Source: Bilabrum cf. latius (taxonomy: Eukaryota). Taken from it: 64,000 nt of DNA. The DNA lies in assembly GCA_965178125.1 (NCBI GenBank), contig OZ237741.1:1302001-1366000 (forward strand), read 5' to 3'. Positions within the stretch are counted from its first letter, which is position 1. Every line of letters begins with the position of its first letter. The notes below the pieces were generated by a model. It did no database searches. It had not been told where the DNA came from and saw nothing but the letters and a program-made list of their open reading frames with translations. Positions 44,463-45,459 of the stretch are shown piece after piece. The position numbers and the translations under genes are program-made.

Positions 44463-45459
44463 TCACTGTCCCCCACCCACAGCGGCATCGCCCCCCTCGT
44501 CATCATCGTCGGCAGCTGCCTCCGCCCTGGCAAGCACATCCGCGAGCTGCTCCCGCGTGTACAGGGAGTATCCCCCCGTGGGCGTGACGGTGGCGATCTC
44601 AATGTTCTCGTCCGTGACCCGCTCCTCCATGGTGGCCCTCAGCACCTTGGCCACCAGCACCTCCGCGTCCGCGATGGACATGCCCGCGGACCACTTGTCC
44701 TCCAGGGTGCCCCTTGCCCCCTCCGAGCCGCTGCCGATGGCGTGTGCCTTGTACTCCACGAAGGTGCCGCTGGGATCCACGCAGAAGAGCTGCGCGCCCT
44801 TCTTGCGGTCCACGCCCGCCATGAGGAGCGACACGCCGAAGGGGCGGCTCATCTTGCTCTTGTTCTCCTTGCCGCCCTCTCCGAAACTCATCATCAAATC
44901 ACTCACGCTCTGACACAACGACTCGGGCCGCAGCGGCTCGTCGTAGGTGAACCTGTGGTTCTGAGCCTCCACGCGAGCGTGCTCGATCAGAGTGCGGGCG
45001 TCTCCTGACAATCCCGAGATTGCAGCACCAATATGAAAATCTACTTCACGAATCTTTTCAACGCTTGATTTCTCCATCAATTTATGGGTTATCCTCTTCT
45101 CTACGCCTAGCACGACGCCATCCTTGGTCTTCACGCCAAGTGCGCAAGATCCAAGCTACGAGACGAGGAGGGATCATTCAGCAGGACAGCGCGACGGATT
45201 TGACACCAATACATAGAAATCGTGATGCTGTATGCGAGCCATTCGAACCAGAAGCCTAGACTGGTAGGCTTTTAGCCCATCTTCAAACCGAGACAGTGGC
45301 GCAGTTTTTGCGAGCAGCATCCGGGCCGCAACTCACCTCGATAGCCTTAAGAGCATACTCTACCTAGAAAAGACGACCATGGGGGGAGAATGTGGACACT
45401 CCGCGATCGTAACCTCCTCTGCGTCCAGAATTGCAAAACAGGCCAAGAGTGAGCAGCAT
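44463..45459 (-). CDS. PSMA5: 20S proteasome subunit alpha type-5; intron 45156-45336; in-frame TAG 45364-45366 at the conserved Gln
   Basis: [47 protein letters not shown]...ARVEAQNHRFTYDEP...MSRPFGVSLL...DPSGTF...AIGSGSEGA. Ends in TGA. Start uncertain (in-frame ATG 45459, or a short upstream exon). Confidence 0.95.
45364..45366 (-). other. Diagnostic recoded TAG = Gln in the proteasome alpha signature GRLFQVEYA
   Basis: Minus strand reads GGT CGT CTT TTC TAG GTA GAG TAT GCT. Confidence 0.92.

What the first reader, a model, noticed from the sequence alone, without database searches (positions are those of the whole stretch)
45340..45415. Best single-site evidence that TAG = Gln: the proteasome alpha signature GRLF*VEYA
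The minus strand reads [22 protein letters not shown]. The N-terminal signature of 20S proteasome alpha subunits is FSPxGRLxQVEYA with a near-invariant Gln (established). The rest of PSMA5 is intact. TTCTAG resembles a splice acceptor, but the sequence upstream encodes the conserved motif in frame, so it is exon.
Basis: partly seen in the sequence, partly recalled or inferred. Interest (0 to 1): 0.85.

Follow-up and report, generated by a model that had tools for sequence, protein, structure and literature searches.

The report
TAG read as glutamine, stramenopile flagellate
An expressed, correctly spliced proteasome gene carries a TAG "stop" exactly where every relative has glutamine, and the whole region shows that this Cafeteria-like flagellate reads TAG as glutamine while still stopping at TAA and TGA.

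Summary
On the minus strand, TAG (45366-45364) is codon 23 of an intact three-exon proteasome alpha-5 gene. It sits at the motif position where all 73 of the 120 best homologues that carry the motif have Gln.

Spliced contigs from two separate studies join the three exons exactly and keep the TAG unchanged. This excludes an intron, RNA editing, an assembly error or a silent pseudogene.

A syntenic metagenome relative (L001) has the identical exon-2 peptide. Of 27 codons, 19 differ: 18 are synonymous and the last is TAG versus CAG.

Across 11,655 codons in supported reading frames of the window there are 32 TAG, 0 TAA and 0 TGA. Further TAGs fall on Gln in close relatives: the aminotransferase and a CBP3-like gene. 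A likelihood test over 25 orthologous sites favours Gln by 11 log units.

TAA is still a stop, so this is a table-15-type code, not table 6.

A single-gene tree places the organism as sister to Cafeteria. A Cafeteria-clade contig shows no in-frame TAG.

Eight literature searches found no report of a nuclear code change in stramenopiles. The tRNA and eRF1 basis could not be tested.

The parts
45364..45366 (-). In-frame TAG, codon 23 of proteasome alpha-5, at the invariant Gln of the N-terminal signature
   Evidence: sequence; 73 of 73 motif-bearing homologues have Q; relative L001 has CAG here; unchanged in spliced contigs.
45535..45548 (-). Alpha-5 exon 1 (ATG plus 11 nt, encodes MYEN and two bases of the next codon)
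   Evidence: The junction 45535|45418 is found in spliced contigs of X5 and X7. Cafeteria P0003 also begins MYEN.
45419..45534 (-). Intron 1, 116 nt, GTAAGC...ACGCAG
   Evidence: skips 116, CT..AC on the + strand.
45337..45418 (-). Alpha-5 exon 2, 82 nt, holds the signature and the TAG
   Evidence: covered by X5 record 2 and X7 record 6 with 0 other letters and 0 gaps. PF10584 match.
45156..45336 (-). Intron 2, 181 nt, GTGAGT...TCGTAG
   Evidence: skips 181.
44463..45155 (-). Alpha-5 exon 3, including the TGA stop at 44465-44463
   Evidence: PF00227, E 4.4e-55. PDB alpha type-5, E 6.7e-66; stop codon.
56053..56055 (-). Second TAG at a conserved Gln: aminotransferase gene (54817-57201, minus strand), codon 383 of the open frame, context SWVTY-TAG-PQ
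   Evidence: the 98%-identical relative P0121 and 7 of the 8 nearest homologues, including Cafeteria P0123, have Q. Over all 120 homologues, mostly bacterial-looking, the column is A 86, Q 9.
11034..11036 (+). Third TAG at a Gln-rich column: CBP3/UQCC1-like gene (10434-11666, plus strand), context LFKSIF-TAG-EDDE
   Evidence: Q in 6 of 11 homologues, including the 87% relative P0241; R in the other 5.
12299..12301 (-). TAG inside the PTHB1/BBS9 gene, within a contiguous alignment to human BBS9
   Evidence: alignment domain 4 spans query residues 517-868. The TAG column is F in human, so this site shows that TAG is translated, not which residue it gives.
28427..43411 (+). 4994-codon open frame (myosin-head remnant, RCC1 repeats) with 12 in-frame TAG, 0 TAA, and TGA only at the end
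   Evidence: the other five frames hold 18-53 TGA and 5-15 TAG. Pfam hits; two TAGs abut poly-Gln runs.
44209..44214 (+). TAA-TGA tandem stop of the EF-hand gene; the TAA is position-equivalent to the TGA stop of the L001 orthologue
   Evidence: C-terminal tails ...EKESYRICSVA-TAA against ...EKESYQFCTLC-TGA.

Best explanation
The window is nuclear DNA of a GC-rich heterotrophic stramenopile that a single-gene tree places as sister to Cafeteria. In this lineage UAG has changed from a stop codon to a glutamine codon, while UAA and UGA still end translation (a table-15-type code). The TAG in proteasome alpha-5 is therefore an ordinary Gln codon, one C-to-T step away from the CAG that its relative uses at the same place.

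Shown here: the TAG is in the mature spliced mRNA; it sits at an invariant Gln; in-frame TAG is common in conserved genes of this organism and of a syntenic relative; TAA and TGA are absent from those frames and stand at gene ends.

Inferred from established knowledge of UAG-only reassignments (PMC5304391, passages read): decoding by a tRNA-Gln with anticodon CUA, derived from tRNA-Gln(CUG) by one anticodon change. That tRNA pairs with UAG but not UAA. It would work together with an eRF1 that no longer releases efficiently at UAG.

Also inferred: the GC-rich genome made TAG and TAA stops rare. I infer 11 TGA, 3 TAA and 0 TAG among 14 gene ends, which would have eased capture of UAG.
For: 1. 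mRNA: contigs of X5 (884 nt) and X7 (773 nt), from two studies, join 45155|45337 and 45418|45535 with GT..AG introns and 0 other letters over exon 2.
2. Invariant Gln: 73 of 73 motif-bearing homologues among the 120 best.
3. Relative L001 (91% amino-acid identity, syntenic): 19 of 27 exon-2 codons differ, 18 synonymously, and the remaining one is TAG versus CAG.
4. Codon counts in frames with Pfam, PDB or homologue support: window, 11,655 codons with TAG 32, TAA 0, TGA 0, CAG 441, CAA 39. L001, 3,456 codons with TAG 21, TGA 0, and TAA 2, both within the last 29 codons of one frame.
5. The 4994-codon frame has 12 TAG and no internal TGA, against 18-53 TGA in the other five frames.
6. Other TAG sites: the aminotransferase site is Q in the 98% relative and in 7 of the 8 nearest homologues. 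P0121, called with the standard code, ends exactly before the next TAG although homology continues beyond it. The CBP3 site is Q in 6 of 11.
7. 25 TAG-versus-sense orthologous sites between window and L001: Q 7, E 4, R 3, A 3, S 3, G 3, P 1, H 1. Log-likelihood is -57.7 for Q against -69.0 for the next best, E. Q itself is conserved at 26% in the same alignments.
8. TAGs abut poly-Gln runs.
9. TAA as a stop: the EF-hand orthologues end at the same residue, with TAA in the window and TGA in L001. In L001, about 11.5 internal TAA would be expected from the CAA:CAG ratio if TAA meant Gln; 0 are seen.
10. The base after TAG (G 20, C 9, A 3, T 1 of 33) resembles that after CAG, so there is no special read-through context.
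Against: No tRNA gene was found in the window or in six relatives' loci. No whole genome is held. So neither the tRNA-Gln(CUA) nor the eRF1 could be examined. There is no peptide evidence.

Most TAG sites fall in variable columns and say nothing about the residue. Hop2 sites: K 40, Q 17, E 16 and A 39, E 33, K 16, S 14, Q 7 of 150. CBP3: K 5, E 5, A 1 and R 2, A 1. PTHB1: F in human. In the 87% relative P0241 only 1 of 3 TAG sites is Q.

The RNA nature of X5 and X7 is the tool's guess, supported only by the spliced form. All runs were laid as contigs, which drop rare variants.

For the window alone, 0 TAA against about 2.8 expected is weak evidence. Gene ends are inferred, not mapped. Occasional use of TAG as a stop cannot be excluded.
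Confidence: 0.9

Rival explanations
1. UAG is read through as Gln without a dedicated tRNA. Near-cognate tRNA-Gln(CUG) would decode UAG because eRF1 recognises it poorly. UAG would then be a leaky or context-dependent stop rather than a fully reassigned codon.
For: No tRNA(CUA) could be examined. Near-cognate tRNA-Gln read-through is reported in the abstract of PMC13192750 (search listing only). TAG makes up only 6% of Gln-type codons in the window.
Against: There are 32 in-frame TAGs in 11,655 codons and 12 in a single gene. Partial read-through would leave almost no full-length giant protein. An essential single-copy proteasome subunit carries the TAG at codon 23. No distinctive downstream context is seen. 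TAG was not inferred as the stop at any of 14 gene ends.
Confidence: 0.06
2. Both UAG and UAA encode Gln (table 6, as in many ciliates, Hexamita and some ulvophytes). TAA would simply be rare here because of the high GC content.
For: In the window alone, 0 TAA against about 2.8 expected is not decisive.
Against: In L001 (GC 57%, CAA:CAG = 39:71) about 11.5 internal TAA would be expected alongside 21 TAG, and none is internal. The EF-hand orthologues end at the same residue with TAA in the window and TGA in L001. TAA also stands where the coding signal ends in the CBP3 and PTHB1 genes.
Confidence: 0.03
3. The TAG is a nonsense mutation, a pseudogene copy, or a sequencing or assembly error in this one gene.
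For: It is a single C-to-T difference from the CAG of relatives L001 and L007.
Against: Identical letters appear in one DNA-type contig and in two spliced contigs from other studies. The rest of the gene is intact. Exon 2 shows 18 synonymous and 0 amino-acid differences from L001. In-frame TAG recurs in at least nine other conserved genes of the window and 21 times in L001. Only one contig at 90% likeness or more was laid in X1.
Confidence: 0.005
4. UAG is a sense codon but encodes another residue (Glu, Lys, Leu, Ser or Tyr, as in other lineages with a reassigned UAG).
For: Several TAG sites align mostly with E, K, R or A.
Against: The invariant alpha-5 column is Q in 73 of 73. The aminotransferase site is Q in the 98% relative. 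Q is favoured over E, the next best, by 11.3 log-likelihood units over 25 sites. TAGs flank poly-Gln runs.
Confidence: 0.01

Closest known systems
UAG-only reassignment to Gln with UAA kept as stop: Iotanema spirale (Fornicata), Protocruzia tuzeti, and the phyllopharyngean ciliates Hartmannula sinica and Trochilia petrani (NCBI table 15)
   Same: The codon change is the same: UAG becomes Gln and UAA stays a stop (PMC5304391 abstract and passages; PMC11687900 passages). Here too, in-frame TAG falls at conserved Gln and TAA/TGA stand at gene ends.
   Different: The supergroup branch differs (stramenopile, near Cafeteria). The genome is very GC-rich (67%) and TGA is the dominant stop. PMC5304391 describes UAA as the primary stop of I. 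spirale (abstract), and PMC11687900 reports 93.5-100% of C-terminal alignments ending at UAA in the two ciliates (passage). The tRNA and eRF1 basis was not examined here.
UAR (UAA and UAG) to Gln, NCBI table 6: many ciliates, Hexamita, Streblomastix, ulvophycean green algae, Amoeboaphelidium
   Same: UAG is read as Gln. The likely mechanism is a mutated tRNA-Gln anticodon plus an altered eRF1 (list in PMC11687900).
   Different: TAA is not a sense codon here, so the two UAR codons are decoupled.
Cafeteria roenbergensis, the closest named relative
   Same: It is a GC-rich (~70%) bicosoecid (PMC6972860 abstract). Its alpha-5 is 67% identical to the window's over the part compared and has the same N-terminus MYEN...[11 protein letters not shown]. 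The single-gene tree puts the window's clade as its sister.
   Different: Its annotated proteins read through these positions with CAG-type Gln (P0003, P0123). The genome paper's matched passages mention a non-standard code only for the mitochondrion (UGA=Trp). A Cafeteria-clade contig (L007) has about 3,400 codons of coding-like frames that are not interrupted by TAG.
Context-dependent codes in which all three stops are also sense (Condylostoma, Parduczia, Blastocrithidia, Amoebophrya)
   Same: A standard stop codon is read as an amino acid inside genes.
   Different: TGA and TAA are absent from 11,655 supported codons. Nothing suggests that position along the mRNA decides the meaning of TAG, but this was not tested genome-wide.

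Membership tests
20S proteasome alpha subunit, type 5 (PSMA5/PUP2) | Proteasome subunit fold domain (Pfam PF00227) | tested here: met
   E 4.4e-55, 186.7 bits, profile positions 4-189 of 189.
20S proteasome alpha subunit, type 5 (PSMA5/PUP2) | Alpha-subunit N-terminal signature (PF10584), with Gln before VEYA | tested here: met
   E 6.5e-14 with TAG read as Q. Every other signature residue is present whichever code is used.
20S proteasome alpha subunit, type 5 (PSMA5/PUP2) | Closer to alpha-5 than to the other six alpha types | tested here: met
   yeast and human alpha-5 at E 6.7e-66 and 6.9e-61; other eukaryotic alpha types at 1e-36 or worse. The sources' own names for hits are 'alpha 5'.
20S proteasome alpha subunit, type 5 (PSMA5/PUP2) | Expressed and correctly spliced | tested here: met
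   spliced contigs in X5 and X7. The RNA label is the tool's guess; the spliced form is the evidence.
Variant nuclear code UAG=Gln with UAA/UGA stops (table-15 type) | In-frame UAG in mature mRNA or contiguous coding sequence of conserved genes | tested here: met
   (alpha-5 mRNA). (PTHB1, contiguous alignment). (aminotransferase, homology on both sides of two TAGs); 32 TAG in 11,655 codons.
Variant nuclear code UAG=Gln with UAA/UGA stops (table-15 type) | UAG corresponds to conserved Gln in homologues | tested here: met
   73 of 73; 7 of the 8 nearest plus the 98% relative; 6 of 11; likelihood favours Q by 11.3 units. At least five other sites are uninformative.
Variant nuclear code UAG=Gln with UAA/UGA stops (table-15 type) | UAA is not used as a sense codon and terminates genes | tested here: met
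   L001 has 0 internal TAA against about 11.5 expected; the window has 0 against about 2.8. EF-hand orthologous termini are TAA and TGA.
Variant nuclear code UAG=Gln with UAA/UGA stops (table-15 type) | UAG no longer terminates genes | tested here: inconclusive
   I inferred 11 TGA, 3 TAA and 0 TAG among 14 gene ends. The ends are not mapped by RNA, and low-complexity tails (for example the LRR gene) could end at a TAG.
Variant nuclear code UAG=Gln with UAA/UGA stops (table-15 type) | A tRNA-Gln with anticodon CUA | not testable with these tools
   No tRNA was found in the window or in six loci. No genome is held.
Variant nuclear code UAG=Gln with UAA/UGA stops (table-15 type) | eRF1 changes that lower UAG recognition | not testable with these tools
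   The eRF1 gene is not in the window, and no genome is held.
Variant nuclear code UAG=Gln with UAA/UGA stops (table-15 type) | Peptide evidence for Gln at UAG | not testable with these tools
   No proteomics data are available here.
Table 6 code (UAA and UAG = Gln) | In-frame UAA at Gln positions | tested here: not met

The most novel reading that the evidence does not exclude
This may be the first nuclear genetic-code change seen in stramenopiles. UAG alone would have been captured for glutamine in a GC-rich lineage sister to Cafeteria, after the split from Cafeteria. The change is shared by at least two diverged members: the window and the metagenome relative L001, which are about 78% identical in DNA over the alpha-5 exon, with GC 67% against 57%. 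UAA and UGA are kept as stops. It would add an independent, GC-rich case of uncoupled UAA/UAG evolution, with a standard-code sister (Cafeteria) that is cultured and sequenced and can serve for comparison.
Probability: 0.55. Interest if true: 0.75.

Novelty: new member of a known kind. Interest (0 to 1): 0.65.

Why it matters
Nuclear code changes are rare. Changes that separate UAG from UAA are rarer still: PMC11687900 names only Iotanema, Protocruzia, two phyllopharyngean ciliates, one rhizarian (Leu) and Scotinosphaera (Ser) (passages).

A case in a GC-rich stramenopile, with a sequenced standard-code sister genus, would give a clean comparison for asking which tRNA and eRF1 changes are enough to reassign UAG. 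It would also test the idea that disuse of a stop codon under GC pressure precedes its capture.

There is a practical side. Standard-code gene callers truncate this lineage's proteins: P0121 ends at a TAG, and P0001 begins only inside exon 3, downstream of the alpha-5 TAG. Public protein sets and metagenome bins from it are therefore fragmented and should be re-called with table 15.

Tried and rejected
- Whole-genome checks (second alpha-5 copy, tRNA-Gln(CUA), eRF1): no genome is held for this window.
- tRNA scans of the window and six loci, and Rfam on the window, L001 and L007, found nothing.
- ORF-length comparison under different codes was not a clean test. TGA is the commonest stop triplet in this GC-rich DNA, so freeing it also lengthens spurious frames. 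Only the 4994-codon frame is specific to TAG-as-sense.
- A home-made codon-usage scan was noisy: segments ran past stops and picked up antisense frames. I used it only to find further genes and as a rough look at L007.
- COG4 has no PDB match, so its TAG sites could not be read.
- The aminotransferase PDB alignments put P or E at the TAG column. Only the closer homologues were informative.
- The Hop2 search of 1.84 billion representatives gave variable columns.
- Literature: eight searches gave no report of a nuclear stop-codon reassignment in stramenopiles or bicosoecids. The hits that combined these terms concerned mitochondrial codes or cited them. Supplementary files of papers were not consulted. 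The library misses most subscription journals, so an existing report cannot be excluded.
- Run X6 covered only exon 3 and says nothing about the TAG.

Full report
**What is there**

The window has 67% GC. The minus strand between 45417 and 45337 reads [29 protein letters not shown], with the TAG at 45366-45364. This is the N-terminal signature of 20S proteasome alpha subunits. With TAG read as Q it matches Pfam PF10584 at E 6.5e-14. The next exon matches PF00227 at E 4.4e-55. The best solved-structure matches are all alpha type-5/PUP2 (E 6.7e-66 for yeast, 6.9e-61 for human). Other eukaryotic alpha types score 1e-36 or worse.

**Gene model**

The gene has three exons on the minus strand:

| Feature | Coordinates | Notes |
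|---|---|---|
| Exon 1 | 45548-45535 | ATG plus 11 nt |
| Intron 1 | 45534-45419 | 116 nt, GT..AG |
| Exon 2 | 45418-45337 | 82 nt, holds the TAG |
| Intron 2 | 45336-45156 | 181 nt, GT..AG |
| Exon 3 | 45155-44463 | ends in TGA |

The spliced frame is 789 nt. Its only stop triplets are the TAG at codon 23 and the final TGA. The closest named homologue, Cafeteria roenbergensis (67% identity over the part compared), starts [36 protein letters not shown]. The window starts [38 protein letters not shown].

**Is the TAG in the message?**

I laid the contigs of four public runs on 44300-45700.
- Run X1 holds the whole stretch in one contig with no difference. It may be the window's own source.
- Runs X5 and X7 come from two other studies. 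Each holds one contig (884 and 773 nt) that joins 45155 to 45337 and 45418 to 45535, which are exactly the two predicted introns.
- Both contigs have 0 other letters and 0 gaps across exon 2.

So the spliced transcript exists, includes exon 2 and keeps UAG. The TTCTAG is not used as an acceptor, and there is no editing to CAG in these assemblies.

Caveats: these are assembled contigs, not reads, and the RNA label is the tool's guess. The spliced form is what argues for RNA. X1 laid only one contig at 90% likeness or more, so no second near-identical alpha-5 copy is seen there. X6 covered only exon 3.

**Is the position really Gln?**

- Of the 120 best homologues, 73 carry the motif, and all 73 have Q.
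- In the alignment column, 81 of the 90 rows with a residue have Q. The non-Q rows that were displayed lack the flanking motif.
- A metagenome contig, L001, carries an alpha-5 that is 91% identical in protein. It is syntenic with the window over the kinase, alpha-5, EF-hand and giant genes.
- L001's exon-2 peptide is identical to the window's. Of 27 codons, 19 differ: 18 are synonymous and the nineteenth is CAG in L001 against TAG in the window.
- Under such strong purifying selection, TAG behaves as a synonym of CAG.

**Is it one gene or the whole organism?**

The window holds at least 16 genes with Pfam or PDB support.

| Source | Codons counted | TAG | TAA | TGA | CAG | CAA |
|---|---|---|---|---|---|---|
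| Window, supported frames | 11,655 | 32 | 0 | 0 | 441 | 39 |
| L001, orthologous frames | 3,456 | 21 | 2 | 0 | 71 | 39 |

The two TAA in L001 both lie in the last 29 codons of one frame.

A single frame of 4994 codons (28427-43411) has 12 TAG and no TGA before its end. The other five frames over the same span hold 18-53 TGA and 5-15 TAG. TGA is therefore avoided in frame and TAG is not.

TAGs lie inside aligned domains:
- PTHB1/BBS9, within a contiguous alignment to the human protein.
- The aminotransferase. The standard-code protein P0121 of a 98% relative stops exactly before one TAG, although homology continues beyond it.
- The CBP3-like chaperone.
- Hop2.
- COG4.

**Which amino acid?**

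Evidence for Gln besides alpha-5:
- The aminotransferase TAG (56055-56053) is Q in the 98% relative and in 7 of the 8 nearest homologues, including Cafeteria. Over all 120 homologues the column is A 86, Q 9.
- A CBP3 TAG (11034-11036) is Q in 6 of 11 homologues and R in the other 5.
- Two TAGs in the giant gene abut runs of Gln codons.
- Across 25 sites where one of the window/L001 orthologues has TAG and the other a sense codon, the partner is Q 7, E 4, R 3, A 3, S 3, G 3, P 1, H 1.
- With substitution frequencies taken from the same alignments, Q has log-likelihood -57.7 and the next candidate, E, has -69.0. Q itself is conserved at only 26% in these fast-evolving proteins.

Evidence that is neutral:
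- Two Hop2 sites, two CBP3 sites and the PTHB1 site fall in variable columns.
- In the 87% relative P0241 only one of three TAG sites is Q.

**What about TAA?**

- In L001 the CAA:CAG ratio is 39:71. About 11.5 internal TAA would accompany 21 TAG if TAA also meant Gln. None is internal.
- The EF-hand orthologues end at the same residue, with TAA (followed by TGA) in the window and TGA in L001.
- TAA also stands where the coding signal ends in the CBP3-like and PTHB1 genes.
- Among 14 gene ends that I inferred, 11 are TGA, 3 TAA and none TAG. These ends are not mapped by RNA.

The code is therefore of the table-15 type: UAG = Gln, with UAA and UGA as stops.

**Who is it?**

- The nearest named proteins are from Cafeteria roenbergensis.
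- In a single-gene alpha-5 tree, the window groups with three unnamed database proteins and L001 (support 100/99).
- This clade is sister, with weaker support (92/78), to a clade holding Cafeteria and the metagenome contig L007. A single gene of about 250 columns cannot fix the position.
- L007 has CAG at the alpha-5 site. It also has about 3,400 codons of coding-like open frames that TAG does not interrupt; one of them ends at a TAG.
- The Cafeteria genome paper's matched passages report ~70% GC and mention a non-standard code only for the mitochondrion (PMC6972860, passages).
- The change thus appears to postdate the split from the Cafeteria clade.

**Mechanism**

Shown: UAG is in the mature mRNA and is treated by selection as Gln. 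UAA and UGA are kept out of frames.

Inferred: a tRNA-Gln with anticodon CUA, which pairs with UAG but not UAA, derived from tRNA-Gln(CUG) by one change. This is the argument of PMC5304391 for Iotanema (passages). An eRF1 with weakened UAG recognition would accompany it. Neither gene is in the window, and no genome is held. The base after TAG resembles that after CAG, which does not suggest context-driven read-through.

**Comparison with what is known, and novelty**

- UAG-only reassignment to Gln is described for Iotanema spirale, Protocruzia tuzeti and two phyllopharyngean ciliates (PMC5304391 abstract; PMC11687900 passages).
- UAR-to-Gln reassignment is described for several other groups.
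- None of the eight literature searches returned a nuclear stop-codon reassignment in a stramenopile. The hits that combined the terms concerned mitochondrial codes.
- The library lacks most subscription journals, and I did not see supplements. I therefore rate this as a new member of a known kind, probably unreported.

**Verdict**

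Noticed in passing
window 28427-43411 (+): A 4994-codon frame with no intron-like break. It carries a weak myosin-head match (E 0.0078), IQ-like basic repeats and RCC1 repeats, is very Ala/Gly-rich, and has 12 in-frame TAG. Two of them abut poly-Gln runs (36344, 42092). L001 covers the orthologue of its 3' part.
   Followed up: partly
window 17065-23190 (-): A 2042-codon TGA-free frame with 15 in-frame TAG and no Pfam match. Only short stretches look coding by codon usage, so it may be several exons or partly non-coding.
   Followed up: no
window 44300-45700; runs X1, X5, X7: The spliced alpha-5 message, letter for letter, is present in runs labelled with organisms other than that of the full-length DNA holder, and from three different studies. 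This flagellate seems to ride along in other samples or cultures. I did not trace the source.
   Followed up: no
L001 1-12595 against window 39728-51139: Synteny over four genes with a relative of much lower GC (57% against 67%). TAG makes up 16% of Gln-type codons there (21 of 131) against 6% in the window (32 of 512), so use of the new codon differs within the clade.
   Followed up: partly
window 44209-44214 (+): The EF-hand gene ends with TAA directly followed by TGA, a tandem stop.
   Followed up: partly
window 10434-11666 (+) and 11861-14575 (-): The CBP3/UQCC1-like gene carries a WW domain (E 3.5e-4), as do database homologues P0250 and P0251. It converges on the PTHB1/BBS9 gene, with about 195 nt between their TAA stops.
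   Followed up: no
proteins P0121 and P0001: Public protein predictions for close relatives are truncated by standard-code gene calling. P0121 stops at a TAG. P0001 begins only inside exon 3, downstream of the alpha-5 TAG. Annotation of this clade is therefore fragmented.
   Followed up: partly
protein P0124: A record labelled Symbiodinium sp. KB8 shows the same local peptides as Cafeteria P0123 at the two fully aligned aminotransferase sites displayed. It may be a contaminant record.
   Followed up: no
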